Of a stretch of DNA of 32,000 bases, positions 5,757-26,270 are shown piece by piece (the stretch's first letter is position 1; each line of letters starts with the position of its first letter). Both the position numbers and the translations under genes were made by a program. Location: assembly GCA_048886185.1 (NCBI GenBank), contig JBHLKY010000030.1:1836-33835 (forward strand), given 5' to 3'. Source of the DNA: Candidatus Hermodarchaeota archaeon. GTDB taxonomy: Archaea; Asgardarchaeota; Heimdallarchaeia; Hodarchaeales; Hodarchaeaceae. Under the pieces are notes generated by a model. That model made no database searches and was not told where the DNA came from. It worked only from the letters and a program-made list of their open reading frames with translations.

Positions 5757-6686
5757 TCAAGATTCTATCATGCTTTTCAACTGGGAACTAAAAGCAAGTA
5801 CCTTGTTGTATAAAGTAGGAATTTGCTCATTTTTCTCTTTAAGACGATCTTTTGGAAACCCAAAGAATAAAGCGAGGCCACCTTCAATGAATCTGATAAT
5901 AAAAACTTGACGATCAGATTCTAATAAAACTGATGTAGTGTTCTGATTTCTTTGATTTGATAGGCGTTGAAATACAGCATCAAAAAAGCTTTTCACCTCT
6001 AGGAGAGATATATGGTCAAATCGCGAAACATCTTGAACTTTTGTTAAGGGAGCACCTTCTTTTGTAAATATTTGAGCCATATCGGCTGCATTATGACGAA
6101 TGAACGTTTCTAATAGTGGTTTGAGAGTTTTTCGTGCACCACTGGCTTCTGCATAAACATCACCCATTGCCCTGAAAATTGAATCGGTAAAAACAGAGGT
6201 TGAATAGAATTTTATCTCTTGAGTAACACCAGAGGAAATATACTCTTTGATCGTAATTTTAACTTCGTCTCTGAGTCTTTTTGGTATTTGATCTGTTTTA
6301 TGTTGAAAAATGAAGACAGTCGCATCTGGACTAAATTGTTTTAATTTATTTAATGATAAATCCAAGTAATATTTAGCACGTGATATTTCATTTATTTTTA
6401 TTGAGTCAACAACGAATACTAAAGATTTGACCCCACTGAATATAAACTCTGATAACTCCCCTGTAAATCGATCCAGAAATGCTGTTTGGCCTCCTAGATC
6501 AAAAATGGTGAGTTCTGTTCCTGCAATGGTTTTTTGTTTCCGTTCATAATCAATAGTCGGGTTATACGATTCTCCTTTTTGGGGGATTTTTCCTTCAGTT
6601 ACTACTTTTATAATAGTAGATTTCCCAGACTCTGCTAGCCCTAGAATCAGAATTTTACTTGTTTTCTTTCGTGCAAGGTATGACAT
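5757..6686 (-). CDS. Rag/Gtr1-like small GTPase with C-terminal roadblock-like domain
   Basis: G1 GLAESGKST, G2 YNPTIDYE, G3 DLGGQ, G4 HKTD, G5 TSV. C-terminal alpha/beta domain (MAQIFTKEGAPL...SVLLESDRQVFIIRFI...LALFFG plus terminal helix). Confidence 0.88.
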   Translation of the reverse strand: MSYLARKKTSKILILGLAESGKSTIIKVVTEGKIPQKGESYNPTIDYERKQKTIAGTELTIFDLGGQTAFLDRFTGELSEFIFSGVKSLVFVVDSIKINEISRAKYYLDLSLNKLKQFSPDATVFIFQHKTDQIPKRLRDEVKITIKEYISSGVTQEIKFYSTSVFTDSIFRAMGDVYAEASGARKTLKPLLETFIRHNAADMAQIFTKEGAPLTKVQDVSRFDHISLLEVKSFFDAVFQRLSNQRNQNTTSVLLESDRQVFIIRFIEGGLALFFGFPKDRLKEKNEQIPTLYNKVLAFSSQLKSMIES

Positions 6687-6700
6687 TCTCTTGACCTCTA

Positions 6701-7495
6701 TTATACGCCAATTTTCTGAATAGTTCCAATTTTTTCAAGGAGTAAATCACGTTCGATAGGATCTGATACATCACGGATAGTAAATTCATTTTTAAAACGA
6801 TTTGTATTCAGATTTGATGCGGCCCGACTGGCAAAAAACATAAGTCGTTGGGGGGTTGCATCATCTAATTTAATTAGAAATATTCGTTTAATTACCCCGT
6901 TAATCAATATTAATATGGAATAGGCGGTGAGGTCACTACTTGAATCCAGTTTGATTAATTCACCTTCTTTATCAACGGTGAAGAATTCTAATCCACCCTT
7001 TTCAGGTATGTATAGAGGTGTTTCTGGCTGGATAAAGGGTATTTCTTTGGATGAAATGTCTTTAATTCGATTTAGAATTCGCTCCATTATTGTTGGGTCA
7101 TATAGATTGTCTTCGATATGGATTGTACGAATCTCTTCTTGGAGTGCCTGTTCAATGACAGTATGTTGAAGGAAAACCCGATTTCGATCTTTTGACTCAA
7201 ACAATAGCCAGATAGTCGATTCTCGGCCATGTTGGTCGATTCGTACATCATCTGTTTTTGTTGGAGTAACAGTAAATGACATTGCTAAGGCTTCTAAATC
7301 TGGTGAATCAGGAATCGGAATGGAACCGTGTAAGCGATAATGTTGCTTTTCTGCAACAGTTCCTGCTCCCATGGAGAGAATTGTCATTCCGATAACACTT
7401 AATTTTACAGTGGTATCCTCTGATATTGGGGACAAATTCAAGAGTGGAAATGGTCCCATATCGGTCATTGTGGTTACAATGAGTCCAGAAATCAT
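6701..7495 (-). CDS. Longin/uDENN-like N-terminal domain fused to a gelsolin-like C-terminal domain (tentative)
   Basis: N-terminus GLIVTTMTDMGPFPLLNLSP resembles uDENN/longin starts. C-terminus ILILINGVIKRIFLIKLDDATPQRLMFFASRAASNL resembles gelsolin-like repeats. Recognised by eye only. Confidence 0.55.
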   Translation of the reverse strand: MISGLIVTTMTDMGPFPLLNLSPISEDTTVKLSVIGMTILSMGAGTVAEKQHYRLHGSIPIPDSPDLEALAMSFTVTPTKTDDVRIDQHGRESTIWLLFESKDRNRVFLQHTVIEQALQEEIRTIHIEDNLYDPTIMERILNRIKDISSKEIPFIQPETPLYIPEKGGLEFFTVDKEGELIKLDSSSDLTAYSILILINGVIKRIFLIKLDDATPQRLMFFASRAASNLNTNRFKNEFTIRDVSDPIERDLLLEKIGTIQKIGV

Positions 7496-7515
7496 CCATT
7501 TTTACTCCTTTGCAT

Positions 7516-8472
7516 CTAGTTCGCCTTATATTTCAGCAAAGATGTTATTTCAGTTGATATTTCAAGACATACTTGTTCAATAGTAGAATAAGATTCAGAA
7601 TTTAATCTGAATGTCGATTCTATTCCAATTAATACTAATTTTGTTCCAATATTAACAAGTTGAGTAATCATTAAAAAGTCTTCAATTCGAAGAACATTTG
7701 TTTTTGCCTCGGGGGCTATATCAAAAGCCTCATATTGGTCTAGCATCTTGATAATTTGAGGTCCGACTTTCTCTTGCCAACTTTGGTTTTTTCCTATTGC
7801 TAAAAGAATCTTATGGCTTGGAGACAATAAAAAAGCTCCAGCGATGCCATATGTCTTCATTTTCTCTTCTAGTCTTTCTTTAATTCGACGTTTATTTACC
7901 AGATCTAGATTTAGTTGTGCTTCCAAAGGTCTATCTTGGGAGAATTTACTAAAATCAGCAGCTTTATTTATTATCTGAGTAAAGATTAGGTTGGTTAATC
8001 GTTGTTCATCAGGCCCTTTCAATGAAACAATATAAGATGGGATTTCATTAGGAAAGAATTGTTGAAAGTTTTTGATGACTGTGTCTTTTATTTTGTTTCT
8101 TTCAACCTCACTAGTTATTAAATGTCCACGGTTTAGTAAAAGAACAACTCGAAAATTTTTGTTTACACTACTAATATCTGCAGTTATCCTTTGAAAATCC
8201 GATGAGATCTCATCTAAAAGTTGATAGGAGATATCGTGTATGTAAATAAGCGTGTTTATTTTCATTAAGATCTTTTCACGAATAGAAGGAAGTAAGCTAG
8301 TAATATAAGTCTCTTCTTTCTTTGAATGAGAGGGATTTAACCAATCATAGTAAAAAACGTTCTGTAATATCTTAAGATTTGGTTCTGTCCGTCCTAACTT
8401 CATCATTTGGCTAAAAAGTAGGTCTTTTCCAGAATGAGATAACCCGGATAATGCGATGAGGTTTTGACGCAA
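7516..8472 (-). CDS. Degenerate (pseudo) small GTPase with C-terminal roadblock-like domain
   Basis: TTG start with GAGGAG SD. G1 GLSHSGKD (D instead of S/T), G3 DWLNP, G4 NRGH. C-terminal domain IAGAFLLSPSHKILL...NVLRIEDFLMITQLV...LVLIG. Confidence 0.65.
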   Translation of the reverse strand: MRQNLIALSGLSHSGKDLLFSQMMKLGRTEPNLKILQNVFYYDWLNPSHSKKEETYITSLLPSIREKILMKINTLIYIHDISYQLLDEISSDFQRITADISSVNKNFRVVLLLNRGHLITSEVERNKIKDTVIKNFQQFFPNEIPSYIVSLKGPDEQRLTNLIFTQIINKAADFSKFSQDRPLEAQLNLDLVNKRRIKERLEEKMKTYGIAGAFLLSPSHKILLAIGKNQSWQEKVGPQIIKMLDQYEAFDIAPEAKTNVLRIEDFLMITQLVNIGTKLVLIGIESTFRLNSESYSTIEQVCLEISTEITSLLKYKAN

Positions 8473-8482
8473 TGTGACTCCT

Positions 8483-9487
8483 CTAAATTGGTGTTTTGAG
8501 CATTGATTCTAGCTGCATGGACAGAAGTTTAACAGTTTCTTCAATCTCTGCTAAATTTCTAGTTTCTAACATAGATTTTTCATCACTGGAGACTAGAATT
8601 AGTAAATGATGTGGTTGTAACTTAGATTTGTACATCATTACTGCTCCTAGCCTTTTTAATTCAGATTTCGATCCAGTGATTAATTTTAGATCTTTTGATT
8701 TATCCAAAAGAGTCAATAGTTGTTGGATTTCACTATCTTCTAACTCGGAGGCATTAATTCTGAAATTGGGATCCTCCAGCGAAATTAGAATGACTTCATC
8801 TAATCGGTTCATAAATTTAAGAGTGTGAAGTACCTGTTGAATAGGTCGAAGGCGAAGCCTTTGTTTAATCGCTTCTAAGTCTTCCTCTTCTTTCATGCTT
8901 TCTACTTCAGGAATAACTTCACTAGCTTCTGCTGTTATCCGTTTAAATGCTTCATGGATCGAATTATCATAAATGGATGTTTGCAAAAATGTTATGTTTT
9001 TGTTTGATGCCGCATCTTGAAACATTTCCATAAGAAATTCCATTCGTTCAGCCCGTTGAGTAAGATCGGGCATGAGATCAGTCTTGTGCAGCAGGACATA
9101 GACAGCAGGTTGTACATCAGACATCTCTTCCAAACGGCTGACACCTTCAACAAAGGCCTTGAGTGAAGCTGGAAATTTATCTGGAGTAGCAATATCACAG
9201 ATGAAAACTAAGACCGCAACATTACTGAAGATGAATGAACTCATACTACTCAAAAAACGTTTTAAAAAAACCTCTTGTCCTCCTAAATCCATAACAGTGA
9301 TGGGCTCGTCTGCAACCTGCTCAATCTGTCGTTCATAATTTAACGTCGCTGCATAATCCTTGGTTTCCTCTGGTGCCTTACCTTCAAAAACAACGTCACG
9401 AATGGATGTTTTTCCCGCCTGCGAGAGTCCTAGTAAGATTATCTTCCGTGCGCTCTGCGTTTTCAGCTGTTTCAAGTAATGACTCAT
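8483..9487 (-). CDS. Rag/Gtr1-like small GTPase with C-terminal roadblock-like domain
   Basis: G1 GLSQAGKTS, G2 YAATLNYE, G3 DLGGQ, G4 HKTD, G5 TSI. Acidic linker, then an alpha/beta C-terminal domain. Confidence 0.9.
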   Translation of the reverse strand: MSHYLKQLKTQSARKIILLGLSQAGKTSIRDVVFEGKAPEETKDYAATLNYERQIEQVADEPITVMDLGGQEVFLKRFLSSMSSFIFSNVAVLVFICDIATPDKFPASLKAFVEGVSRLEEMSDVQPAVYVLLHKTDLMPDLTQRAERMEFLMEMFQDAASNKNITFLQTSIYDNSIHEAFKRITAEASEVIPEVESMKEEEDLEAIKQRLRLRPIQQVLHTLKFMNRLDEVILISLEDPNFRINASELEDSEIQQLLTLLDKSKDLKLITGSKSELKRLGAVMMYKSKLQPHHLLILVSSDEKSMLETRNLAEIEETVKLLSMQLESMLKTPI

Positions 9488-9682
9488 GGCATCGTCCTCT
9501 CGAGATCTAACACCTAGAATTATCTACACAAGTTCAAGTGTAAAGTTTTAAGATTCATCAAATAAATCTTTTTATATAATTCTGTGTTATTAAAGGTATT
9601 AACCATTAAATAAAAAAAAACTATTGGTTCGCGTGAAAATAAGGCGTTTCTTTTTTGATTCTAATGTTGGAGCGTTAATCTC

Positions 9683-10030
9683 TTGCAACAACGCAAACCG
9701 CCCGATATTTTGTGTGAGATCACATGTAGATCTTTTCGATGCAGTGAAAAACTCTTGTCGATTACATATAGTCGTGGTGAGAAGAAGATAATGTGCAGAA
9801 TGATTGAAGGCGACGAATGTATCGGTTATAAATGTAAGTTTGCTGTTTGTTTTGTTCGGCCTTCAGCTTTGGATGTTTCAACAGGTTCTTGTTCTCAAAA
9901 GCTGAAACGTCAGAGACCTCGACACACTCAAAAAGCTAGTAGTAAAGATACTTTTGACGATCCCTTGAAATATAAAAATCTACTTGACAAAAAGTTAAGA
10001 AAAAATTTCAAGCTCAAAGATTACTATTAG
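9683..10030 (+). CDS. Small Cys-rich, putatively metal-binding hypothetical protein with basic tail
   Basis: TTG start with GGAG upstream. Cys pattern CEITC-RSFRC...C-RMIEGDECIGYKCKFAVC...C; Lys/Arg-rich C-terminus. Confidence 0.7.
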   Translation: MQQRKPPDILCEITCRSFRCSEKLLSITYSRGEKKIMCRMIEGDECIGYKCKFAVCFVRPSALDVSTGSCSQKLKRQRPRHTQKASSKDTFDDPLKYKNLLDKKLRKNFKLKDYY

Positions 10031-10093: not shown

Positions 10094-11575
10094 TTAAACT
10101 AGCTTGTGTGTGAAATGGTAAAATCCACTCGTTTCATATAGAAATAGGACTATGATGACTATAGCAATCAAGCTGAGTCCAAAACAGAAAGTAAAAAGAC
10201 CAATAATTCCTTCTGGGCCAAGGCCAACAAAATATCCTCCTATAATAGCGCCCATAATATTTCCCATAGCCATGAGTGATTGGGTAAAGCCCATCTCACG
10301 TCCCCGTTGCCCTGATTTGGTTACATCACTAACTAAACCAAGAGCAGCTGAAATAAAACAAGAAGCGGAGAGACCGTAAATGATAATCATTAAGACAACA
10401 AAGATGTGAGGGATCGGGAGTGGATTTTCAGGGATAAGATTCAAGGAAATTGTATCTGTTAATGAGAATGGATTTTTTATCAGATTAGACAATTCAGAAA
10501 GTTCCCATACTTGATTTCCATTTACGGATTCATAATCAAGAATGGATGCAAGTGTTATTAACAACATACTGGTACCAATAACTCCAATTACCAAGAAGGG
10601 TTTTCGTCCTACGTTATCAGAAAGTTTACCTAATACTGGTTGCATTATTCCCATTATACAAATCGCAAGAAAGCCAATTACCGCAATAGCGGGTCCTACC
10701 TCTATAACGAGGTCGAATATAATAGTAGGTGCTACAAAAGTGCTTGCTCCTATGAGTGTTGTATAAGCTAACCATGCAATGGCGAATTTACGAAACTGTT
10801 TGTCTTGAAGACTTTCTAGCATAGTTTTAAACGGATTTATATCAATCTCTGAATCCGTTACAGTTTGAGTGAAATCTGTTAGCATTATATCAGCTTCATC
10901 ATGTGAGACTATATCTGTATGGGGTTCAAAGAACCTAAACACATAAATTGAAGTAGCCAAGAACATTATGATTGCAAAGAAGAAGAATGAGTCCTCTTTT
11001 AAAATCGCCCATGCGAATAAAGCAAATGGATTCCCAATAGCTCCTCCAGCAGCTTTTGCTAAGTAGAATTTCCCCATTGTTTCACCATGCTTTTCTTCTG
11101 GGGATAAATCTGCAATTACCGCTAATATGGGTCCAGAGATCATCGCAGCAGCTAACCCTTTCAACCCGTTCGAAAGGACTAGAACTAGAAAACTAAATGG
11201 TAGAGTCGCATAGTAAGGATACATAATGGGAAAAATAATAAAGGAAATACCTGCTAATGCTGTTCCAATGATTAAAAATGGTCGTCGTCCAAAACGATCG
11301 CTAATTAATCCGAAAAATGACGCAGTTGATAATGAAACGATGTAGTAACTGGCTACAATTATTGCGGTTTCGATACCCACCGTACTCGTTCCACTTTGTT
11401 CTCCTAATTCCCGGAGGTATAGGGGTAAACTAAATCCTGCAGAAGCAAATGCACATTCCGTCACAGCCACTGCAATATAAAGAATCATACTTTGCTTCTT
11501 TAGCAAAAAGGTGATGGGTTGGCCAATGAAATGCAAGGTTTCCTTTGTATATTTTGATATTGTAAGGCGTGGCAC
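10094..11575 (-). CDS. Major facilitator superfamily transporter
   Basis: GTG start, about 12 TM helices, MFS motif A in both halves (GLISDRFGRRPF, GKLSDNVGRKPF). Confidence 0.92.
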   Translation of the reverse strand: MPRLTISKYTKETLHFIGQPITFLLKKQSMILYIAVAVTECAFASAGFSLPLYLRELGEQSGTSTVGIETAIIVASYYIVSLSTASFFGLISDRFGRRPFLIIGTALAGISFIIFPIMYPYYATLPFSFLVLVLSNGLKGLAAAMISGPILAVIADLSPEEKHGETMGKFYLAKAAGGAIGNPFALFAWAILKEDSFFFFAIIMFLATSIYVFRFFEPHTDIVSHDEADIMLTDFTQTVTDSEIDINPFKTMLESLQDKQFRKFAIAWLAYTTLIGASTFVAPTIIFDLVIEVGPAIAVIGFLAICIMGIMQPVLGKLSDNVGRKPFLVIGVIGTSMLLITLASILDYESVNGNQVWELSELSNLIKNPFSLTDTISLNLIPENPLPIPHIFVVLMIIIYGLSASCFISAALGLVSDVTKSGQRGREMGFTQSLMAMGNIMGAIIGGYFVGLGPEGIIGLFTFCFGLSLIAIVIIVLFLYETSGFYHFTHKLV

Positions 11576-11829: not shown

Positions 11830-12732
11830 ATGAAAATTTCACTTGTTGGACTTAGTGGTTGCGGTAAAACATCAATCTATTTCACTACATTGGGTGGGAT
11901 GGCTCCTATGGAGACCAGTGATTTCGGGCCGACCATTATGTATGAGGTGAAGTCCCATAATTACTTGGGTCTTCAAATATCCCTGTGGGACTTCGGAGGG
12001 CAAGAAAAATATAGGCAATCGTACCTCGAGACACCTAAACTTCTCGCTAACACCACGGTGTTGGTTTTAGTCCTTGATCTCCATCATCCTGAGGATTTTA
12101 AGAAAGCAGACGATTACTTTAGGCAGGTTTATTCCGCTATTAAAGAAAATGGAGGAGATCCTCGTTTAATAATTTTCTTTCATAAATATGATACAGAGCA
12201 ATATCTTAAGGAACAGCTTGAAGAGAATCTCGACAAAGCTAGAGAATTACCATTTGTCCGAGAACTTAATCCTGAATCCTTTGTTACATCTATTTATAGA
12301 CAAGAGGAATTAAGTGAGGTTTTTCGTCAAATCTTGATTTCAGACTTTGATAAATTAAAAAATAGCGTTGAACACGCTCAAAACCAACTCATGAAGCTGA
12401 ATTCAAAGATCATTGTGAGTGATGTGAATGGAAATGTTATTACTCATAGTATCAAGGGTTTTTCAACGGGAATCCAGCTTCGTGAAGATTTGCGTGATTA
12501 TATTCTTTCCTGTAATGTATTACGTGAAAATTTCCTCACAAGTGATTCAGCTTCTTTTTCTGCCATTTCTGATTCAAAGACATTAGAATTGCATATTTTT
12601 AATTTTGTTCTAGCTGTACTCATTATGGTAGATAAAGGGGTAAAAGTTGATCCCCCTGAAGATATCGAAGCTTTGCTAAAAGATATGAAAGTGTTTGCAG
12701 AATTAATCATTGAAGCTAGTAGAGAAGATTAA
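11830..12732 (+). CDS. Rag/Gtr1-like small GTPase with C-terminal roadblock-like domain (start revised from 11740 to ATG 11830)
   Basis: GAGGAG SD precedes ATG 11830 (MKISLVG). G1 GLSGCGKTS, G2 GPTIMYE, G3 DFGGQ, G4 HKYD, G5 TSI. C-terminal KIIVSDVNGNVITHS roadblock-like strand-turn-strand. Confidence 0.88.
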   Translation: MKISLVGLSGCGKTSIYFTTLGGMAPMETSDFGPTIMYEVKSHNYLGLQISLWDFGGQEKYRQSYLETPKLLANTTVLVLVLDLHHPEDFKKADDYFRQVYSAIKENGGDPRLIIFFHKYDTEQYLKEQLEENLDKARELPFVRELNPESFVTSIYRQEELSEVFRQILISDFDKLKNSVEHAQNQLMKLNSKIIVSDVNGNVITHSIKGFSTGIQLREDLRDYILSCNVLRENFLTSDSASFSAISDSKTLELHIFNFVLAVLIMVDKGVKVDPPEDIEALLKDMKVFAELIIEASRED

Positions 12733-13099: not shown

Positions 13100-13585
13100 T
13101 TGATTGTTGAAGAAATAGGGAATACAACCCTTCAAAAGATATTTACATCAAAAAAGAGGAGTCGAAGTAGCTTAATCCCAATTTTACAAGACATACAAAG
13201 TGAATTTGGGTATTTATCTAAAGAAAACATGATTCATATTGGGGAATATATTGGAATGTCATTTAACGAAGTTTATGGGGTTGCTTCATTCTATAAACAA
13301 TTCAAATTTGTTAAATCTGGAAAACATATAATAACTGTATGTTTAGGAACAGCTTGCTTTGTAAAGGGCGGTCAAATACTCGCTGAAACTGTAAGAACAA
13401 AATTAGGTATTAATCCAGATGAAACTACAGAGGATAGGTTATTTAGTTTTGAACGTGTTGCTTGTTTAGGATGTTGTGCCTTATCTCCAGTTGTTCAAAT
13501 TGATGGGGAAGTTTATGGAGAAATGAAACCAGCAAAATTACTTCGAATTATCAATAACATAATTAGGGAAGAAAATAATAAGTAG
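13100..13585 (+). CDS. NuoE/HydC-like [2Fe-2S] subunit
   Basis: TTG start with GGAGG SD. LIPILQDIQ, VYGVASFY, CLGTACFVKG and CLGCCALSP motifs. Confidence 0.95.
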   Translation: MIVEEIGNTTLQKIFTSKKRSRSSLIPILQDIQSEFGYLSKENMIHIGEYIGMSFNEVYGVASFYKQFKFVKSGKHIITVCLGTACFVKGGQILAETVRTKLGINPDETTEDRLFSFERVACLGCCALSPVVQIDGEVYGEMKPAKLLRIINNIIREENNK

Positions 13586-13596
13586 GTAACTGGATA

Positions 13597-19634: not shown

Positions 19635-19757
19635 GTAATACAAGTTGGTTATTAGTGGTTATAAGGGAAACTGTTTAGAGACAACCGATGACTTTAATTT
19701 ATTTTGATCTTTTTTGCCACTTATAGATAGAATGTTTGAATCATTTATTTTAGTTAC

Positions 19758-20177
19758 TTAATCTTCTTTTGATTTTAGTGAGAGGGATTCTAAGGAGTTG
19801 AAAGCGGCTAAAATATCGTAGGATGTTATTATCCCTACCAAATTATTGCTAACGGGATTTATTACAGGAATTCTTTTTATTCTATATTTAGACATTAGCT
19901 TTAACGCGTCTTTAACGGTTTCTTCTGAAGAAATTGTAATAAGGTTTTTTGTTGCAATGTCCCCTGCTTTGACTGTACAAGGATCATTACAATTTAGCAC
20001 AACTCTTGCGATAATATTTTGTTTTGTTATTATTCCAAGATTTTTTTGATCTTTATAAACCAACACTGAACCTACTTTTTTTTCGACCATTAATTGAGCT
20101 ACCTTCTCAACACTTTCATTGGGATTAACAGCTACAATCTCTTTCGTCATAAAATCTTTTACTTTAGTTCTATTCAC
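19758..20177 (-). CDS. Stand-alone CBS-pair protein
   Basis: KVKDFMTKEIV, VGSVLV, GIIT, IKRIPV and LVGIITSYDIL: two CBS repeats; GTG start. Confidence 0.93.
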   Translation of the reverse strand: MNRTKVKDFMTKEIVAVNPNESVEKVAQLMVEKKVGSVLVYKDQKNLGIITKQNIIARVVLNCNDPCTVKAGDIATKNLITISSEETVKDALKLMSKYRIKRIPVINPVSNNLVGIITSYDILAAFNSLESLSLKSKED

Positions 20178-20188
20178 GACATAACTTC

Positions 20189-21217
20189 CTATCCTTGAAT
20201 TCTTTTTAGCATTATTGTTTCATTTTCGTCTTCAATTTTAAGGAAATAGATCATACCAGTTCCTTCAGAGGGTTCAAATTCAAAGGAAATGATTTCTTTT
20301 GGGGCCCATTTTCTTATTTCTGAAATAAGGACATCTTTTCCGAAAAATCCATGTGATTCATATATTTTGAGAAGAACATTTTCTAAAATGGTTGAACTAA
20401 TGTTACGAACTGTGATACGAATGATTTTTTTGTCTTTAGGGGATTCAACTTGAATAATTTTTACACGTTTTGGTTCTGGTTTTAAGATTTCCTCTTTTTT
20501 ACTATCTGAAATCTCCTGTTGTTTTATTGTAGGTATTAAAAATCTTAATTTTTCTGGCCTTTTAGGTACTGAAGGGATACTAGGTTTCTGAAATTGATAG
20601 CTTTCTGAATTTGGTTTTTGCTCCAGTTCATTTTCTTTTAATTGTGCTTTAAGCTTTGTAATGGGGATTTTCGGAATTAAAGAATGATATTTACTCTCAA
20701 GGAGTTCTCTGATGTGTTTAGACCTTTCTATGACTTCTGGCTCTTTACTTTCCTCAAGTATATCTTCAATGAGGAAACGCAATCTTAAACTGACGTGATA
20801 ATTTTCGAGGGTTATTTTAAATTGGTACAATATTTCCTGAGCGATAAAAGAAACCGATGAAGGGGCCTTGACGATCAAAATAAATCTATCAAGTTGCCAT
20901 TTGGCAGATTCCATTCCTGAGCGTCTTTTAATTCTACGTGTTTCACAAAAAGATATTGTAGCACAGTAAATAACATCTCCTATCTCAAGATCGATGCTGG
21001 TAAACTTATCTGTATCTAGGAATTTTTCCTGGTGCCACCATACTGGATGAATGGATAATATTTGTTTTTCATTTTCATCGGTCAATAATTCTTCTGGATA
21101 TCCAAATAGTGGGACATGGCCTCTAATTTCGTCAAAAAAATAGAGAAAGAATCCATACGAATTGTCGCTGGCTAAAGAAACAATATTTTTTGTTGAGGGG
21201 ATATCCCCGTTACTCAT
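20189..21217 (-). CDS. Longin/uDENN-like N-terminal domain plus C-terminal beta-sandwich-like domain
   Basis: GFFLYFFDEIRGHVPLFGYPE start. Colinear similarity to 21697..22644 in both domains. Low-complexity Pro/Lys/Glu linker. AAGGAG SD. Confidence 0.65.
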   Translation of the reverse strand: MSNGDIPSTKNIVSLASDNSYGFFLYFFDEIRGHVPLFGYPEELLTDENEKQILSIHPVWWHQEKFLDTDKFTSIDLEIGDVIYCATISFCETRRIKRRSGMESAKWQLDRFILIVKAPSSVSFIAQEILYQFKITLENYHVSLRLRFLIEDILEESKEPEVIERSKHIRELLESKYHSLIPKIPITKLKAQLKENELEQKPNSESYQFQKPSIPSVPKRPEKLRFLIPTIKQQEISDSKKEEILKPEPKRVKIIQVESPKDKKIIRITVRNISSTILENVLLKIYESHGFFGKDVLISEIRKWAPKEIISFEFEPSEGTGMIYFLKIEDENETIMLKRIQG

Positions 21218-21250
21218 GACTACGCCTTTCTCCTTTATTCTAAAATCTAA

Positions 21251-21454
21251 TCAATCTAAGCTGATTTTAAAGGATTTCTCTCTATTTATCACATTTACAC
21301 AAAATTTCGATTTTAATCTTTTTTGTTTTTCATGAGAGATTATGGAGAAATCATCCGACAATAATATGGGAGTTAATGAAAAAGGGATCTGATGACAATA
21401 ATCAGGTAAGATTGACAATAAAAGCTCTTTTATTTGCTTATTGTCTAAAATCAA
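21251..21454 (-). CDS. Possible small hypothetical protein, 67 aa
   Basis: TTG-start ORF preceded by AAGGGG, filling part of the gap between two co-oriented paralogs. No motif. Confidence 0.3.
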   Translation of the reverse strand: MILDNKQIKELLLSILPDYCHQIPFSLTPILLSDDFSIISHEKQKRLKSKFCVNVINREKSFKISLD

Positions 21455-21696
21455 CCCCTTTTTTAATCCTTTTCTACATAAAAGGCATATAATGATTTAA
21501 TAGTCTTCTATAATGCTAGAGAAATATTTTTCATTTCTTCAGAGTAAAATTACGACAAAAAGGGGTAACCTCTTTACTCTATTAAACGTTTTTTCAAACA
21601 ATTTCTAGTATCATATCTTGATCATTAAAGGAACTTCAAACAATGCAAAGAATATAAATTTCTAAAGATGATTTTATCATTGGAGATATACTTAAA

Positions 21697-22644
21697 TTAA
21701 CTAGCATTAGTAGAAGCAATCTCAAGGGACTTTATGTCTATTGTTGTATTTCTACTAGTAATCTTTATCAAATACTTCCCAATTACGTCAGATTTGGAAA
21801 ATTCTAGGATTATATCTTCTTTTAAAGGCCATTCTTCAAGTTTATGCTCCCAAATAGTTTCACTAAAAAACTCTGTTCTTCTTGACACATGAATCCTTAT
21901 ATCATATAAATTTTCACTCTGATTAATTAATACTACCATTAATCTATTCTTATTTTCCTCTGTTGGTAAGACTCTCATGGTTATTTTTTGCTTAAACAAA
22001 TCCTGAGCACAAAGACTTGTCTCTACTGGAATCATGGAGGAATTGACTCGACTTGGTATTATCTCTGTGCTAAAAGGCTCTATATTTTTATTAATTCCAT
22101 AAACAAATTTTTTCCAAATATTTTTAAGGGACAATTCGATTTCTACGGCTTTTTTTAGTAATTCATCGTGTTCTCGTTTTTTGATCGGATTTAATGCCAA
22201 TTTTTCTCGTTGATATAATATCTCAAGATCTGAACCAATATCCGAATTTATTGTTGTTTTTAAATCAACAAATGCTTTAACGGGTATAGGATCACTATCT
22301 TTCCATTTTTTGATGACGATTCCATAGAGAGGGTGATCAATTGTTGACAACGATCCCTCTTGGGAATCTTCTTGAAGCTGAATAGCTGAGTAAACAAATT
22401 CTGAAAATTTTAAATCAATTCGAAAAGGAACATTTTCAATTTTCCACACACAATGAGTTTTTAGAATATTAATTTCATTTTGATTTTTTTTCAATTTTGA
22501 TGGGTATGAAAAGAGGATACGAAGGCCATGAGTAGTATCAAAAGAACACAAAAAAAATCCTATTAGGCCAACTTTTGAGTCAAAAGTTTGCTTATCGGTT
22601 GCAGGTTCAATATCAGTATCAAATACGGGATCGATATTCATCAT
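21697..22644 (-). CDS. Longin/uDENN-like N-terminal domain plus C-terminal beta-sandwich-like domain, paralog of 20189..21217
   Basis: GFFLCSFDTTHGLRILFSYP...NEINILKTHCVW matches GFFLYFFDEIRGHVPLFGYP...NEKQILSIHPVW. AAGGAG SD. Confidence 0.65.
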   Translation of the reverse strand: MMNIDPVFDTDIEPATDKQTFDSKVGLIGFFLCSFDTTHGLRILFSYPSKLKKNQNEINILKTHCVWKIENVPFRIDLKFSEFVYSAIQLQEDSQEGSLSTIDHPLYGIVIKKWKDSDPIPVKAFVDLKTTINSDIGSDLEILYQREKLALNPIKKREHDELLKKAVEIELSLKNIWKKFVYGINKNIEPFSTEIIPSRVNSSMIPVETSLCAQDLFKQKITMRVLPTEENKNRLMVVLINQSENLYDIRIHVSRRTEFFSETIWEHKLEEWPLKEDIILEFSKSDVIGKYLIKITSRNTTIDIKSLEIASTNAS

Positions 22645-22917: not shown

Positions 22918-24837
22918 ATGAAACAAAATTTTTTAGTATATTCTCATTTACTCACATCAGTAGAAACAATTCATCAAATAACTTTGGAACGTTTGGAGAA
23001 GAACATTTTGAGTACACAAGTGTGGGATCTCATTGTAGTGGGAGGTGGGCCTGCTGGTCTTTCTGGTGCTATTCGTGCTGCAGAATTAGGCCTTCATGTC
23101 CTTGTCCTCGAGGCACGTTCTGGAGTCGCTACCGCAGGTAGTATGGTTGTGGATGGGTATCCTGGCTTTTTTAGTATTACTCGCCAAGAACTACTAGATA
23201 AGATGGCTAAACAGGCGAAATATCATGCGACCATTAAGTATGCAGAGAAAGTTAGTAAACTTGAACTTCACGATCCTGTAAAAAGAGTTTACACACAGGT
23301 GACCAAAGGAGAGTTCTTCACCGAAGAGTTCATATATGACAGTAGGGCTATATTAATCGCTACTGGGGTTCAACCAAGGAAACTTGATATTCCCGGTGAA
23401 GGAAAATTCTGGAATCGTGGTGTATATTACTCTCTTCCAGACGAAGATTACTCGGAAAAAAATGTTGCTATTATAGGGCATACAGCTTGGGCGGTTAGAA
23501 ATGCACTTCATTATGATGCCATGGGCGCTCATGTTTACCTGATTACAAATAAGGAGGCAATTGATGTTCATCCTGCACTCATGAGAAGATTAAATGAGAG
23601 CTTTATTGAAGTTTTATACTCACATGAAATATTGTATTTTGAAGGTACAAATAAGTTAACTAAAACACGTCTTAAAAGTAGAGATGGAAAACAGTTTTCT
23701 ATCCTTACTAACATGGTATTGATCTTAAGTAGCAAGAGTACAAATCGTGAATTATTCCTAGATGCTGGTTTAGAGACTACACCTCAAGGAAATATTATTG
23801 TTTCATCACCCAATCAGAACACAAATATCCCTGGTGTTTTTGCTGCCGGTAGTGCTATAAGAGGTGATTCAGTTGTGGGTGTGGGGGCTGCTGAAGGTAT
23901 AAAAGCTGCAGAAGAAATATCTAAATATTTAGCTAGAATAGATGAAGAAAAGGAGGCTGAAGAACAACAAGAAAAGCCATCTCCTGTTCCTAGGTTCGTT
24001 GAAGGCAAATGTGTGATAGTTGAGAAAGAAGATCTTTCTCCAGAAATAGTCAAGTGGGTAGTTGAGGCACCTTTAATTGCAAAGAAAACTCAACCAGGCC
24101 AATTTGTGATTCTCAGAGTAGATGCAAACGGAGAACGAATTCCTTTAACTATAGCAGATAATGACAAAAACGCTGGGACGATAACTTTGATTTTTCAAAA
24201 AGTCGGAAAAAGTACTAAATTAATGGGAACCATGAAAACAGGTGATCATATTCTTAATCTTCTAGGTCCCTTGGGAAAACCCGTTGAAATTGAGAAATGG
24301 GGTACGGTGGCTGTTTTAGGTGGTGGTTGTGGTGTTGCCCCAGTACTACCTAAAGCTAAAGCACTTAAAGAGCGGGGGAATTATGTTGTGAGCATTATTT
24401 CAGCTAGAACTTCATCACTCTTGATTTGTCGTCAAGAGATGCAAGAAGCAAGTGATGAAATTCACATTGCTACTGATGATGGAACCTTAGGTCATCATGG
24501 GTTTGGACTTGATATCTTAAAACGTTTTGTGGAAGAAGGAAGACAGATAGATCATGTTGTAGCAGTTGGTCCTATTCCTATGATGAAATTCACTTGTGCT
24601 TTCACTAAAGAACATAACATTCCAACAACTGTTAGTTTAGCACCTATCATGGTAGATGGGACTGGAATGTGTGGCTCTTGTCGCGTGACTGTGGGTGGTG
24701 AGATTAAGTTTGCCTGTGTTGATGGTCCAAACTTTGATGGATTAAAAGTGGATTTTGAAGAATTAACCCTCAGATCAAGGGCTTATCTCTACGAGGAGCG
24801 AATTTCAACAGAAAAAATGGCTCGTGAGAAATCTTAG
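22918..24837 (+). CDS. nfnA: Fusion of a TrxB-like FAD oxidoreductase domain lacking CxxC with an NfnA/SudB domain (start may be TTG 23008)
   Basis: N-half: DLIVVGGGPAG, ILIATG, IPGE, TNIPGVFAAG. C-half: QPGQFV...ERIPLTIAD, GGGCGVAP, GPIPMM, MVDGTGMCGSCR, CVDGPNF. GGAG SD lies upstream of in-frame TTG 23008. Confidence 0.88.
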   Translation: MKQNFLVYSHLLTSVETIHQITLERLEKNILSTQVWDLIVVGGGPAGLSGAIRAAELGLHVLVLEARSGVATAGSMVVDGYPGFFSITRQELLDKMAKQAKYHATIKYAEKVSKLELHDPVKRVYTQVTKGEFFTEEFIYDSRAILIATGVQPRKLDIPGEGKFWNRGVYYSLPDEDYSEKNVAIIGHTAWAVRNALHYDAMGAHVYLITNKEAIDVHPALMRRLNESFIEVLYSHEILYFEGTNKLTKTRLKSRDGKQFSILTNMVLILSSKSTNRELFLDAGLETTPQGNIIVSSPNQNTNIPGVFAAGSAIRGDSVVGVGAAEGIKAAEEISKYLARIDEEKEAEEQQEKPSPVPRFVEGKCVIVEKEDLSPEIVKWVVEAPLIAKKTQPGQFVILRVDANGERIPLTIADNDKNAGTITLIFQKVGKSTKLMGTMKTGDHILNLLGPLGKPVEIEKWGTVAVLGGGCGVAPVLPKAKALKERGNYVVSIISARTSSLLICRQEMQEASDEIHIATDDGTLGHHGFGLDILKRFVEEGRQIDHVVAVGPIPMMKFTCAFTKEHNIPTTVSLAPIMVDGTGMCGSCRVTVGGEIKFACVDGPNFDGLKVDFEELTLRSRAYLYEERISTEKMAREKS

Positions 24838-24851
24838 GAGGAACTAGAAAT

Positions 24852-26270
24852 ATGTCAACAAAAAAATCAAAAAGACAAAGAGTTCACATGCAAGCCCAAG
24901 ACCCTGCCGAGCGAATTCGAAACTTTGAAGAGGTAACTTTAGGGTACACAGAGAGTGAGGCGATAGAGGAAGCTTCTCGCTGTCTCCAGTGTAAACGCCC
25001 ACGCTGTATCCAAGGATGCCCTGTTAGTGTGCGAATACCCGAGTTCATTTTAAAGTTAAGGGAGGGTGATATTGATACGGCAAAAGAAATAATTTTATCT
25101 ACAAATAGTCTACCTGCCATCACGGGACGAGTTTGTCCGCAAGAAAATCAATGTCAGGAGTTCTGCATTCACCCTAATGCAATAAGTATCGGTGCACTCG
25201 AAAGATTTGTTGCTGATCATGGAAAACGACCTGAAGTCTCCTCTCGTGAGAAATATCCAACTAAGGTTGCAGTAGTTGGATCTGGTCCATCGGGATTGAC
25301 TTGTGCAGCTGAGTTAGCAAATCTTGGTCATGAAGTAACCGTTTATGAGGCACTACATGAGCTTGGTGGAGTTCTGAGATATGGTATTCCTGAATTTAGA
25401 ATGCCAAAGAAGATAGTGAATGAAGAAATAGATTATGTAAGAAGCTTAGGAGTTAAATTAGATACAGATATATTGATTGGAAAGACATTAACAGTCGATG
25501 AGCTTCTAAATGAAAAAGGATTCAATGCTGTATATATTGCAGCGGGTGCAGGAACCCCCAACTTTCTTGGTATCCTAGGGGAGACCTTAAGAGGTGTTTT
25601 TTCCGCAAATGAATTTTTAACTCGCGTTAATCTTCTAAAAGGGTATGAATTTCCAGAATATGACACTCCTGTAACTGTTGGAGAAAAAGTTGCTGTCGTT
25701 GGGGCAGGAAACGTAGCAATGGACTGTGCGCGAACAGCACTCCGTTTAGGAGCTCGTGAAGTCGATATTATTTATCGTCGCTCTGAAGGGGAAATACCCG
25801 CAAGATTAGAAGAAATTATCCACGCGAAAGAAGAGGGAGTTGTCATAGGGGAGCTAACATCTCCGATTGAAATGCTTGGTAATAAAAAAGGAATGATAAT
25901 TGGACTAAAGTGTATTCAAATGACTTTAGGACAATTGGATGAGTCTGGTCGTCGAAGACCAATCCCCATCCCTAACTCCGATTTTATTTTCCCTGTGGAT
26001 ACTGTGATAGTAGCCATTGGTCAGCGACCCAACCAGTTAATAGCTCAAACCACTTCAGAGCTAGAAACTACAAAATGGGGAACTATTGTACATGAAAAAG
26101 AAACAGGAAAGACTACTAAGGAACGTGTATATACTGGAGGCGATGTTGCTACTGGAGCAGCAACTGTTATTTTAGCTATGGAAGCTGGTCGAAATGCTGC
26201 TAAAGCAATTCATAAGATGATTCTTGAGAAAGATTTGGAAATTCAAACTGAGTTAATACAAACCGAATAA
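24852..26270 (+). CDS. nfnB: NfnB/SudA (GltD family) flavoprotein, second copy without the extra C-terminal domain
   Basis: EASRCLQC...CIQGCP, GRVCPQENQC, GSGPSG, YGIPEFRMP, GAGNVAMD, YRR, TGGDVATG; AGGAGG SD. Confidence 0.95.
   Translation: MSTKKSKRQRVHMQAQDPAERIRNFEEVTLGYTESEAIEEASRCLQCKRPRCIQGCPVSVRIPEFILKLREGDIDTAKEIILSTNSLPAITGRVCPQENQCQEFCIHPNAISIGALERFVADHGKRPEVSSREKYPTKVAVVGSGPSGLTCAAELANLGHEVTVYEALHELGGVLRYGIPEFRMPKKIVNEEIDYVRSLGVKLDTDILIGKTLTVDELLNEKGFNAVYIAAGAGTPNFLGILGETLRGVFSANEFLTRVNLLKGYEFPEYDTPVTVGEKVAVVGAGNVAMDCARTALRLGAREVDIIYRRSEGEIPARLEEIIHAKEEGVVIGELTSPIEMLGNKKGMIIGLKCIQMTLGQLDESGRRRPIPIPNSDFIFPVDTVIVAIGQRPNQLIAQTTSELETTKWGTIVHEKETGKTTKERVYTGGDVATGAATVILAMEAGRNAAKAIHKMILEKDLEIQTELIQTE

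What the first reader, a model, noticed from the sequence alone, without database searches (positions are those of the whole stretch)
5757..26270. Candidate redox/energy-sensing Rag-longin signalling locus interleaved with electron-bifurcating enzymes
Seen: within about 20 kb are three intact Rag-like GTPase-roadblock genes, one pseudo-GTPase, three longin/uDENN-like genes, a CBS-only gene, an MFS transporter and two Nfn-type operons. One NfnB carries a domain otherwise seen only on the longin proteins. Known: in eukaryotes Rag GTPases are controlled by longin-domain GAPs (NPRL2-NPRL3, FLCN-FNIP), a transporter-like sensor (SLC38A9) and the CBS-containing AMPK gamma subunit. Inference: this could be a prokaryotic precursor or analogue of nutrient/energy signalling whose input is NAD(P)H/ferredoxin state.
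Basis: partly seen in the sequence, partly recalled or inferred. Interest (0 to 1): 0.8.

Follow-up and report, generated by a model that had tools for sequence, protein, structure and literature searches.

The report
Asgard Rag GTPase module, swapped redox enzyme
In this Hodarchaeales (Asgard) archaeon a Rag-type GTPase, two folliculin/NPRL2-like longin proteins and a CBS protein sit beside an Nfn-type redox enzyme that carries the same rare docking-like domain as the longin proteins; sister species carry a different redox enzyme with that domain at the same spot, which ties a eukaryote-style switch to redox metabolism, though how it works is untested.

Summary
In detail: all the listed genes are present and intact. 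The 20 kb is not one system, though. It contains two separable modules plus neighbours.

Module 1 (5757-9487) is a four-gene operon: Rag-like GTPase, conserved pseudo-GTPase, longin-gelsolin protein with a GP motif and an invariant Arg, and a second Rag-like GTPase.

Module 2 (11830-22644) is the local form of a pan-Asgard module. One orthologous Rag-like GTPase (RagA3) is inherited with a redox flavoenzyme and longin proteins that all end in one private ~100-aa Ig-like domain (Cdom).
- In 36 of 36 informative loci from other Asgard families, an FrhB-like enzyme carrying Cdom lies next to RagA3.
- In this genus, 11 genomes keep FrhB-Cdom and 10, including this one, have a NuoEFG-NfnA-NfnB operon whose NfnB carries Cdom. 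None has both.
- The swap happened at least twice.
- A natural fusion joins the longin, Cdom and four CBS domains.

A Rag/longin/CBS link to a redox enzyme is therefore well supported by comparative genomics. That redox state is the input, and that the MFS transporter, the second Nfn operon and module 1 belong to the system, is not supported.

This scan found the FrhB form of the module earlier on other genomes; I found nothing in print. The enzyme swap is new here. Co-folding gave no verdict.

The parts
8483..9487 (-). RagA2: intact Rag/Gtr1-like GTPase (334 aa), first gene of the four-gene operon (module 1)
   Evidence: PF04670 E 9.5e-36. GKT, DLGGQ and HKTD are visible in the sequence. Orthologues are 77-90% identical across the genus.
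7516..8472 (-). Conserved pseudo-GTPase paralogue (318 aa)
   Evidence: PF04670 scores only 21.6 bits. GKD, a deleted G3 and NRGH are conserved in 8 species. A 10-nt gap separates it from the upstream gene.
6701..7495 (-). Lng264: longin domain (res 1-150) with GP motif and invariant Arg85, plus a gelsolin-like domain (res 168-264)
   Evidence: AF2 pLDDT 86. Foldseek hits: 8yqg E 4.6e-6, Thor ProGel 7c2f E 9.8e-4, FLCN-FNIP2 6ulg_N, and GATOR1 chains. A profile hit to ProGel has E 0.0068. G14, P15, D83, R85 and G90 are invariant in 30 sequences.
5757..6686 (-). RagA1: intact Rag/Gtr1-like GTPase (309 aa), last gene of the operon
   Evidence: PF04670 E 2.9e-34. GKS, DLGGQ and HKTD are present. 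A Rag-Rag-Lng264-like row occurs in another family of the order (L041).
9683..10030 (+). Cys-rich 115-aa protein, conserved in the genus only; membership uncertain
   Evidence: No Pfam match. Orthologues are 54-70% identical at the same position.
10094..11575 (-). MFS transporter; a genus-level neighbour, probably not part of the module
   Evidence: PF07690 E 2.4e-38. It is not found beside RagA3 orthologues in other families.
11830..12732 (+). RagA3: pan-Asgard Rag/Gtr1-like GTPase (300 aa), hub of module 2
   Evidence: PF04670 E 1.4e-20. The best solved relatives are 8yl2, RagA and Gtr1. Orthologues 43-56% identical occur in 85 of 301 Asgard genomes. A Cdom-tagged FrhB-like gene lies next to it in 36 of 36 informative loci.
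13100..17904 (+). NuoE-like, NuoF-like, truncated NuoG-like and NfnA-like genes, co-operonic with NfnB
   Evidence: Pfam and NCBIfam matches. Genes overlap or have 11-nt gaps. The operon is present only in genomes that lack FrhB-Cdom.
17901..19634 (+). NfnB1 (577 aa): an intact NfnB/GltD-type core plus a C-terminal Cdom (DNA about 19308-19631)
   Evidence: TIGR01316 scores 590 bits over res 18-463. The Cdom HMM gives E 5e-31. In the domain tree it nests among FrhB Cdoms.
19758..20177 (-). CBS-pair protein (139 aa), 11 nt downstream of L342
   Evidence: PF00571 E 2.6e-30, two stretches. CBS is co-operonic with the longin-Cdom gene in other families. It is fused to it as four CBS domains in P0172.
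20189..21217 (-). L342: NPRL2/FLCN-like longin (res ~17-200) with a conserved R-x-K-x-R-[SA]-G loop, a disordered linker and a Cdom (res ~250-342)
   Evidence: AF2 pLDDT 77. VIA-align gives Z 10.3 to 8fw5_B and 9.5 to 6nzd_H. The atlas search returns SMCR8/Folliculin and NPR2 clusters. The loop is conserved across Asgard orthologues.
21697..22644 (-). L315: paralogous longin plus Cdom, without the Arg-rich loop
   Evidence: BLASTP to L342 gives E 9e-9 (N-terminus) and 1e-4 (C-terminus). Joint alignment A3. HMM hits. The loop is absent.
22918..26270 (+). Second Nfn-type operon (TrxR-like-NfnA fusion plus NfnB2), divergent from L315; linked only within the genus
   Evidence: Pfam and NCBIfam matches. 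It is present beside L315 in the genus, absent from G001, and not seen in other families' loci.

Best explanation
The stretch is a composite.

**Module 2 (RagA3, NuoEFG-NfnA-NfnB1+Cdom, CBS, L342, L315)** is the Hodarchaeales form of a pan-Asgard Rag-GTPase module. I propose that the private Ig-like Cdom is a docking domain. It would tether one redox flavoenzyme and the longin proteins into a single assembly around the RagA3 GTPase.
- L342 carries a conserved Arg-rich loop and is paired with its loop-less paralogue L315. I propose it acts on RagA3 in the way NPRL2-NPRL3 or FLCN-FNIP act on Rags.
- The CBS protein and the docked enzyme would supply metabolic information (adenine-nucleotide and redox/substrate state) that sets the GTPase state.
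- In this genome the usual FrhB-like enzyme has been replaced by an NADH/NADPH/ferredoxin-type NuoEFG-NfnAB complex that acquired the domain.

**Module 1 (Rag, pseudo-Rag, longin-gelsolin, Rag)** is a separate Rag switch with its own GP-motif longin.

**Shown:** homology, folds, synteny, the fusion and the enzyme swap.
**Inferred:** complex formation, GAP action and the direction of signalling.
For: 1. **Conserved adjacency.** In 38 RagA3-orthologue loci from other Asgard families, 33 have an FrhB-like gene with Cdom immediately upstream and co-directional. Two have it within 1.3 kb. One has a Cdom-bearing fragment cut by the contig end. The other two lack enough flank.
2. **Rarity of Cdom.** An exhaustive profile search of 1.84 billion proteins gave only 83 hits. 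Those I scanned against Pfam were FrhB-like proteins or the longin-Cdom-CBSx4 fusion; most others are 300-357 aa, the length of the longin proteins. The weakest hits are generic Ig-like repeat proteins.
3. **Enzyme swap in the genus.** Of 22 genomes, 10 have NfnB-Cdom and 11 have FrhB-Cdom. None has both.
   - Genomes with FrhB lack the Nuo-Nfn1 operon altogether.
   - This genome lacks an FrhB-Cdom orthologue.
   - Both types occur on both sides of a 100%-supported split.
   - NfnB Cdoms nest among FrhB Cdoms.
4. **CBS linkage.** CBS is co-operonic with the longin-Cdom gene in f12, f23 and f30. It is fused to it in P0172, whose contig also carries a RagA3 orthologue.
5. **Longin fold and loop.** The L342 N-domain matches NPRL2, FLCN and SMCR8 longins. 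It keeps an R-x-K-x-R-[SA]-G loop across Asgard, and L315 lacks it.
6. **Co-loss.** G001 and G016 lack RagA3 and also lack L342, L315, CBS and Nfn2. These lie on both sides of the retained FrhB-Cdom gene.
Against: - There is no biochemical, structural or expression evidence.
- L342 has GH, not the GP motif that marks eukaryotic GAP longins (PMC12290439).
- I could not check residue by residue whether its Arg loop is equivalent to the FLCN, NPRL2 or SMCR8 arginine finger.
- L342/L315-type proteins detectable with my profile are confined to one genus within Heimdallarchaeia. Divergent orthologues do exist in other classes.
- In the large family f14 no longin-Cdom gene was seen in the fetched flanks.
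- The genomes compared are related to one another, so the locus counts overstate independence.
- Nothing indicates which way the signal flows.
Confidence: 0.4

Rival explanations
1. Same assembly, opposite direction. RagA3 with its longin regulators controls the activity, stability or location of the Cdom-tagged redox enzyme. The enzyme would be an effector or client, and CBS (or something else) would be the sensor.
For: Small GTPases usually recruit effectors. The core pair in every family is enzyme-Cdom followed by RagA3 in one transcription unit. Other Cdom carriers in other families look like adaptors, for example arrestin-like proteins (weak Arrestin_C hit; earlier scan notes). Swapping one enzyme for another fits a role as interchangeable cargo as well as it fits a role as interchangeable sensor.
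Against: It is unclear why a soluble flavoenzyme would need a GTPase switch. Longin proteins carry the same tag, so the tag is not simply an effector mark. There are no data on localisation.
Confidence: 0.25
2. The proteins are not one complex. Cdom is a generic Ig-like domain that binds a common third party, such as a membrane or envelope component. Alternatively it spread among neighbouring genes by local shuffling, and the gene linkage reflects co-regulation or inheritance only.
For: The Cdom fold is a common Ig-like sandwich. Its structural matches are generic: PDE6delta, GH2/GH3 domains and DUF3244 at Z about 9. The weakest profile hits are CARDB/ASH-type repeat proteins.
Against: Apart from that weak tail of repeat proteins, the profile hits are confined to a few module-type architectures among 1.84 billion proteins. 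The linkage holds at 43-56% GTPase identity while the flanking genes differ. Each genome in the genus has exactly one tagged enzyme despite repeated swaps. A longin-Cdom-CBS fusion exists.
Confidence: 0.15
3. The whole 20 kb is one redox/energy-sensing Rag system, covering both Nfn operons, the MFS transporter as an SLC38A9-like sensor, all four GTPase genes and all three longins.
For: The genes are contiguous in about half of the congeneric genomes. L315 and the second Nfn operon are divergently arranged with a 273-nt spacer.
Against: Module 1 is about 800 kb away from the rest in G015. It persists without RagA3, L342, L315, CBS or Nfn2 in G001 and G016. MFS and Nfn2 are not linked outside the genus. 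MFS (PF07690) is a different superfamily from SLC38A9.
Confidence: 0.08
4. RagA3 is an assembly or maturation factor for the iron-sulfur flavoenzyme, as nucleotide-dependent chaperones are for metalloenzymes.
For: An NTPase is tightly paired in an operon with an Fe-S flavoprotein.
Against: RagA3 is a Rag/Arf-type small GTPase. The known metallocentre chaperones are G3E/SIMIBI NTPases (background knowledge). The swap to a structurally unrelated enzyme that keeps only Cdom argues against a cofactor-specific role. The longin and CBS partners also fit poorly.
Confidence: 0.05

Closest known systems
Eukaryotic Rag/Gtr GTPases with longin-domain GAP complexes (GATOR1 NPRL2-NPRL3, FLCN-FNIP, C9orf72-SMCR8)
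   Same: The GTPases are of RagA/Gtr1 type (PF04670; best solved relatives RagA and Gtr1). The partners have a longin fold that matches NPRL2, FLCN and SMCR8. There is a paralogous longin pair in which only one member has an Arg-rich loop. Lng264 has a GP motif in the position described for GAP longins (PMC12290439).
   Different: There is no DENN or NPRL2 C-terminal domain, no Ragulator, TOR or lysosome context. L342 reads GH, not GP. The partners carry a private Ig-like domain and include a redox enzyme and a CBS protein. GAP activity is untested.
Asgard RagA3/FrhB-like/arrestin-like/longin module with a shared C-terminal domain
   Same: It has the same orthologous GTPase, the same shared domain, the longin-Cdom protein and the CBS partner.
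   Different: Here the FrhB-like enzyme is replaced by a five-gene NuoEFG-NfnAB operon whose NfnB carries the domain. No arrestin-like Cdom protein occurs in this genome, and a second longin paralogue (L315) is present instead. RagA3 is convergent to the other genes, not co-directional with them.
NfnAB NADH-dependent ferredoxin:NADP+ oxidoreductase and NuoEF/HydBC-type bifurcating modules
   Same: The NfnA and NfnB cores are intact (NF004862 at 339 bits; TIGR01316 at 590 bits). The NuoE/F/G-like subunits have the expected Fe-S and FMN domains.
   Different: NfnAB is joined in one operon to NuoEFG-like subunits without a catalytic hydrogenase or FDH domain. NfnB has a 110-aa Ig-like extension. 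The operon occurs only as the alternative to FrhB-Cdom at this locus.
Asgard Rag-like GTPase pairs and longin/roadblock proteins described by Tran et al. 2024 (PMC10933270) and Liu et al. 2020 (10.1101/2020.10.19.343400)
   Same: These papers describe Rag-like GTPases, one operonic Rag pair in MK-D1, and NPRL2/FLCN-like longins in Asgard.
   Different: Tran et al. report that small GTPase genes in MK-D1 are generally not in operons with longin or roadblock genes. Here a GP-motif longin-gelsolin gene sits inside a Rag operon, and a second Rag is linked to longins, CBS and a redox enzyme.
AMPK gamma / CBS-domain energy sensors
   Same: A stand-alone CBS pair is present, and it appears as a four-CBS fusion to the longin protein in relatives.
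   Different: There is no kinase partner, the ligand is unknown, and homology beyond the CBS fold has not been shown.

Membership tests
Rag/Gtr1 GTPase family (PF04670) | Pfam Gtr1_RagA match above the gathering score | tested here: met
   Scores are 118.9, 123.8 and 74.2 bits against a cut-off of 22 for the three intact genes. The pseudo-GTPase scores 21.6 bits, just below.
Rag/Gtr1 GTPase family (PF04670) | Intact G1, G3 and G4 motifs, with an HKxD-type G4 | tested here: met
   GK[ST], D[LF]GGQ and HK[TY]D are present in RagA1, RagA2 and RagA3. They are not met in 7516-8472 (GKD, G3 deleted, NRGH).
Rag/Gtr1 GTPase family (PF04670) | C-terminal roadblock domain that mediates dimerisation | tested here: inconclusive
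   A profile of the C-terminal ~110 aa finds no solved roadblock. Language-model features point to Gtr1_RagA fragments at 0.85, which is only a lead.
Rag/Gtr1 GTPase family (PF04670) | Obligate heterodimer of two paralogues | not tested
   The gene order (Rag, pseudo-Rag, longin, Rag) is suggestive only.
Longin-domain GAPs (FLCN / NPRL2 / SMCR8 type) | Longin fold (beta-beta-alpha-beta-beta-beta-alpha-alpha) | tested here: met
   Both AF2 models have this topology. Lng264 matches 8yqg at E 4.6e-6, then FLCN and GATOR1 chains. L342 matches 8fw5_B at Z 10.3, 8adl_S at 9.8 and 6nzd_H at 9.5. Sec22, VAMP7 and AP sigma are within 1 Z, so the subtype is not resolved.
Longin-domain GAPs (FLCN / NPRL2 / SMCR8 type) | GP motif just before or at the start of strand 2 (PMC12290439) | tested here: met
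   Met for Lng264: G14-P15 is invariant in 30 sequences and sits between strands 1 and 2. Not met for L342 (G33-H34) or L315 (G-L).
Longin-domain GAPs (FLCN / NPRL2 / SMCR8 type) | Catalytic arginine finger in the longin domain | tested here: inconclusive
   Candidates exist. Lng264 has an invariant D83-x-R85. L342 orthologues keep R-x-K-x-R-[SA]-G between strands 4 and 5. No residue-level superposition on FLCN R164, NPRL2 R78 or SMCR8 R147 was possible.
Longin-domain GAPs (FLCN / NPRL2 / SMCR8 type) | GAP activity on a cognate GTPase | not testable with these tools
   This needs a biochemical assay.
NfnAB transhydrogenase | NfnA (FAD/NAD-binding plus 2Fe-2S) and NfnB (two 4Fe-4S plus FAD/NADPH) subunits encoded together | tested here: met
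   PF10418 and NF004862 match NfnA. PF14691, PF07992 and TIGR01316 (590 and 548 bits, cut-off 472) match both NfnBs.
NfnAB transhydrogenase | Electron-bifurcating activity | not testable with these tools
   This needs an enzyme assay. The extra NuoEFG-like subunits leave the reaction uncertain.
Asgard RagA3 shared-domain module (this scan's earlier findings) | RagA3-type orthologous GTPase | tested here: met
   It is 43-56% identical over its full length to the GTPases of the FrhB-linked loci.
Asgard RagA3 shared-domain module (this scan's earlier findings) | Shared ~100-aa C-terminal domain on three or more module proteins | tested here: met
   The Cdom HMM gives E 1e-31 to 1e-35 on NfnB1, L342 and L315, and on nothing else in the genome.
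Asgard RagA3 shared-domain module (this scan's earlier findings) | FrhB-like enzyme as the tagged redox partner | tested here: not met
   No FrhB-Cdom orthologue is present in this genome: the best FrhB-core hit has E 4e-26 and no Cdom. NfnB1 carries the tag instead. Eleven congeners do have FrhB-Cdom.
Asgard RagA3 shared-domain module (this scan's earlier findings) | Arrestin-like Cdom protein downstream of the GTPase | tested here: not met
   This genome has no further Cdom carrier. The 376-400-aa Cdom proteins are present in other families. A weak Arrestin_C hit was seen only in L045.
SLC38A9-like transceptor | Amino-acid/auxin permease (APC-type) fold and conserved linkage to the Rag system | tested here: not met
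   The transporter is MFS (PF07690). It is not linked to RagA3 outside the genus.

The most novel reading that the evidence does not exclude
The Cdom-tagged redox enzyme (FrhB-like in most Asgard, NuoEFG-NfnAB here) and the CBS protein act as metabolic sensors. They are docked onto an NPRL2/FLCN-like longin GAP that sets the nucleotide state of a Rag-type GTPase. If so, this would be a pre-eukaryotic relative of the Rag nutrient/energy-sensing hub, one that reads cellular redox and energy charge. Its sensor would be modular and could be exchanged simply by moving the docking domain.
Probability: 0.2. Interest if true: 0.9.

Novelty: new variant of a known kind. Interest (0 to 1): 0.68.

Why it matters
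Rag GTPases and their longin GAPs form the core of eukaryotic nutrient sensing. What they do in Asgard archaea is unknown. Published work says that Asgard GTPases are hard to match with regulators because they are rarely encoded together (PMC10933270), and it asks which GTPases pair with the GAP-like longins (PMC12290439).

This locus supplies two concrete, testable sets of cognate partners in Hodarchaeales, a lineage proposed as close to eukaryotes:
- a Rag operon that contains a GP-motif longin;
- a Rag GTPase linked to a longin pair, a CBS protein and a redox enzyme through a private domain.

The repeated exchange of one redox enzyme for another, with the domain kept, is a natural experiment. 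It shows that the tag and the redox function are what is selected, not one particular enzyme.

Tried and rejected
- **Co-folding.** RagA3, L342 and the NfnB1 Cdom were folded together, using alignments A4, A3 and A5 with Cdom as the partner. The score was 0.25 against a mark of 0.32, so there is no verdict. It is not evidence either way.
- **RNA evidence.** No RNA holder was listed among the sequencing runs. Only sediment or estuary DNA metagenomes hold the stretch.
- **Rfam.** No RNA family reached threshold in the window.
- **Roadblock fold of the GTPase C-termini.** A profile of the C-terminal parts against solved structures gave only spurious hits to designed proteins. The RagA3 profile aligns with RagA and Gtr1 mainly over the G domain.
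- **Lng264 profile against solved structures.** Only the gelsolin-like part hit (ProGel, E 0.0068). No longin was found by sequence.
- **Foldseek on the L342 model.** It returned only matches to the Ig-like domain. The longin domain was recovered only by VIA-align wide and the atlas search.
- **The L342/L315 profile.** It found nothing in 61 Heimdallarchaeia genomes outside the genus. Divergent orthologues turned up only by walking from RagA3 neighbourhoods.
- **Literature.** Searches for Asgard with FrhB and GTPase, or with Rag, F420 and gene neighbourhood, found nothing relevant.
- **Rejected: one integrated 20-kb system.** Synteny breaks in G015, G001 and G016.
- **Rejected: the NfnB extension as a longin-only domain**.

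Full report
**Organism and gene map**

The window is contig C30:1836-33835 of a 4.84-Mb, 96%-complete genome. Source names on close homologues place it in Hodarchaeales (Heimdallarchaeia, Asgard). B3_Heim is a congener.

ORF calling with Pfam and NCBIfam scans gives the following map:

| Coordinates | Strand | Gene |
|---|---|---|
| 8483-9487 | - | RagA2 |
| 7516-8472 | - | pseudo-GTPase |
| 6701-7495 | - | Lng264 |
| 5757-6686 | - | RagA1 |
| 9683-10030 | + | Cys-rich 115-aa gene |
| 10094-11575 | - | MFS transporter |
| 11830-12732 | + | RagA3 |
| 13100-19634 | + | NuoE-, NuoF-, NuoG-like, NfnA, NfnB1 (overlaps or 11-nt gaps) |
| 19758-20177 | - | CBS pair |
| 20189-21217 | - | L342 |
| 21697-22644 | - | L315 |
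| 22918-26270 | + | TrxR-like-NfnA2 fusion and NfnB2 |

The first four genes are separated by gaps of 10, 20 and 14 nt. The RagA3 ORF runs from 11740, but its orthologues start at the ATG at 11830.

**Check of the observation**

- The three intact GTPases score 74-124 bits on PF04670 and keep the G1, G3 and G4 motifs.
- The fourth GTPase-like gene has GKD, lacks the G3 segment and reads NRGH at G4. All three features are conserved in eight species, so it is a maintained pseudo-GTPase.
- Lng264 was folded from a 30-sequence alignment (pLDDT 86). It is a longin domain followed by a gelsolin-like domain.
  - The best Foldseek matches are a Lokiarchaeal longin (8yqg, E 4.6e-6), Thorarchaeal ProGel, then FLCN-FNIP2, GATOR1, Lst4 and SMCR8 chains.
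  - G14-P15 is invariant in the alignment and lies at the position of the GP motif reported as specific to GAP longins (PMC12290439). D83, R85 and G90 are also invariant.
- L342 (pLDDT 77) is a longin domain, a disordered linker and a seven-strand beta-sandwich.
  - The longin domain aligns best with a GATOR1 chain (8fw5_B, Z 10.3), SEA-complex Npr (9.8) and an FLCN-complex chain (6nzd_H, 9.5). Other longins lie within one Z unit.
  - Atlas neighbours include SMCR8/Folliculin and NPR2 clusters.
- L315 is a paralogue of L342.
- The C-terminal ~100 aa of NfnB1, L342 and L315 are homologous. I call this domain Cdom. It occurs exactly three times in this genome.

**What Cdom is**

An exhaustive profile search of 1.84 billion representative proteins found 83 hits (39 at E<=1e-10). 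By length, most are 300-357 aa (like the longin proteins), some are 450-510 aa, one is 641 aa, and many are short fragments. The Pfam scan of ten of them showed:
- the 478-510-aa ones are FrhB/FdhB-like;
- the 641-aa protein (P0172) carries four CBS domains after Cdom, and its N-terminus is 30% identical to L342 (E 2e-26);
- two proteins of 387 and 450 aa have no Pfam match;
- the weak tail consists of CARDB/ASH/NPCBM-type Ig-like repeat proteins.

Structurally Cdom is a generic Ig-like sandwich.

**Synteny within the genus**

I fetched twenty loci and annotated them against the window's proteins. The row RagA1-Lng264-pseudoRag-RagA2 is conserved in all of them.

The rest of the locus comes in three layouts.
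- **Layout A** (this genome, G019, G002 and others) has RagA3, the five-gene Nuo/Nfn1 operon, CBS-L342-L315 and Nfn2.
- **Layout B** (G003, G008, G010, G011, G015 and others) replaces the whole Nuo/Nfn1 operon with a single FrhB/FdhB-like gene of ~491 aa (PF04422, PF04432 and Fer4) that ends in Cdom.
- **Layout C** (G001, G016) keeps only FrhB-Cdom next to the MFS gene.
  - These two genomes lack RagA3 on one side of FrhB-Cdom and lack CBS-L342-L315-Nfn2 on the other.
  - RagA3 was not found anywhere in these 94%- and 90%-complete genomes.

In G015 the four-gene Rag operon lies about 800 kb from the rest.

Across the 22 genomes of the genus, 10 have NfnB-Cdom, 11 have FrhB-Cdom, none has both, and one is cut by a contig end. 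The exchange involves the whole enzyme:
- FrhB-type genomes have no orthologue of the NuoG-like subunit, and their only NfnB is NfnB2.
- This genome has no FrhB-Cdom orthologue.

A tree of the concatenated module-1 proteins puts both enzyme types on both sides of a 100%-supported split, so at least two switches are needed. In a tree of the domain itself, the NfnB Cdoms form a 100/99 clade nested among FrhB Cdoms, with 90/96 support for the joint group.

**Synteny beyond the genus**

RagA3 belongs to a pan-Asgard orthologue group. It is 43-56% identical to proteins that the sources name as Loki-, Frey-, Hel-, Hermod-, Odin- and Jordarchaeal. It was found in 85 of 301 Asgard genomes, but in no other Heimdallarchaeia family searched.

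I examined 38 orthologue loci from other families.
- In 33, a 487-515-aa FrhB-like gene with Cdom lies immediately upstream and co-directional, with gaps of 10-171 nt (2 kb in one case).
- In two it lies within 1.3 kb in another orientation.
- In one, a Cdom-bearing fragment is cut by the contig end.
- Two have too little flank to judge.
- Paralogues (37% identity, and the 60% Hodarchaeales paralogue) have no such neighbour.

Many loci have a 376-400-aa Cdom protein downstream. Earlier notes of this scan call it arrestin-like. I saw only a weak Arrestin_C hit.

In families f12, f23 and f30 the row reads CBS, longin-Cdom (an L342 orthologue, HMM E 1e-26 to 1e-33), a C25 peptidase (f12 and f23; absent in f30, which has a second CBS gene there), FrhB-Cdom, RagA3 and the 38x-aa Cdom protein. 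In f23 four V4R proteins follow.

Locus L081 has the order L342-like, CBS, FrhB-Cdom, L315-like, with RagA3 convergent. That is the same as layout B. The contig carrying the P0172 fusion also carries a RagA3 orthologue (46% identity).

All L342 orthologues keep an R-x-K-x-R-[SA]-G loop between strands 4 and 5. L315 does not.

**Interpretation**

The evidence supports a functional unit made of RagA3, a Cdom-tagged redox enzyme, the L342-type longin (here with L315) and CBS. Its most distinctive property is that the redox enzyme can be exchanged as long as it carries Cdom.

I therefore read Cdom as a docking domain and the assembly as a Rag-type switch coupled to redox and energy metabolism. Whether the enzyme informs the switch or is controlled by it remains open.

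Module 1 is an independent Rag operon with its own GP-motif longin-gelsolin protein. The MFS gene, the Cys-rich gene and the second Nfn operon are neighbours at genus level only.

**Comparison with what is known**

Asgard Rag-like GTPases and NPRL2/FLCN-like longins are already known (PMC10933270; 10.1101/2020.10.19.343400; PMC12290439). In MK-D1, GTPase genes are reported as generally not operonic with longin genes (PMC10933270). Which GTPases pair with GP-motif longins is posed as an open question (PMC12290439).

I found no paper describing the FrhB/Rag linkage. This scan noted the FrhB form of the module earlier on other genomes. I re-derived it independently here. I add three things: the Nfn-for-FrhB swap, its mutual exclusivity and recurrence, and the Hodarchaeales longin pair.

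**Limits**

- No binding, activity or expression data exist.
- Co-folding gave no verdict.
- The roadblock fold of the GTPase C-termini and the equivalence of the candidate arginine fingers were not established.
- The genomes compared are related, so locus counts are not independent observations.

Noticed in passing
window 22918-24837: The TrxR-like N-terminal half of the NfnA2 fusion reads GVYYSLPDEDY where thioredoxin reductases have the CxxC redox-active site. It therefore probably cannot perform dithiol-disulfide chemistry. This was seen directly in the translation and matches an earlier first-reader note.
   Followed up: partly
window 9683-10030: A Cys-rich 115-aa protein with no Pfam match is conserved (54-70% identity) between the Rag operon and the MFS gene throughout the genus. 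It may be a zinc-binding regulator.
   Followed up: no
window 5087-5638: A 183-aa hypothetical protein with no Pfam match is conserved (36-61% identity) directly downstream of RagA1 in most congeners. It may be a fifth gene of the Rag operon.
   Followed up: no
window 21218-21696: The spacer between L315 and L342 is 479 nt in this genome but about 80-190 nt in congeners. No Rfam family matches it. Its content was not examined.
   Followed up: no
G000 contig C28:5780-7726: There is a second Rag-longin pair in the same genome. A 345-aa Lng264 paralogue (HMM E 4e-28) lies convergent to the genome's best-scoring PF04670 GTPase.
   Followed up: no
L028-L032 (G011, G019, G002, G001, G016): A class-I Trp/Tyr-tRNA-synthetase-like gene (377-379 aa, PF00579) sits next to the MFS gene, on its Rag-operon side, in one clade of the genus. 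It is absent from that position here.
   Followed up: no
L083-L088, L116, L117 (families f12, f23): In other Asgard families the RagA3 module includes a C25 (gingipain-type) peptidase of 670-870 aa between the longin and FrhB genes. In f23 it also includes four tandem V4R (TRAPPC3-superfamily) proteins downstream.
   Followed up: partly
L082-L085, L116 (family f12): An FrhB paralogue with an N-terminal winged-helix (MarR/HTH-like) region and no Cdom lies beside the module, divergent from the 38x-aa Cdom gene. It may be a redox-responsive regulator.
   Followed up: no
L081 and P0087: Source labels look unreliable. The contig with the Hodarchaeales-like layout and 56% RagA3 identity is named Odinarchaeota. 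One L342 homologue is filed under Bacteroides sp. SM23_62_1.
   Followed up: no
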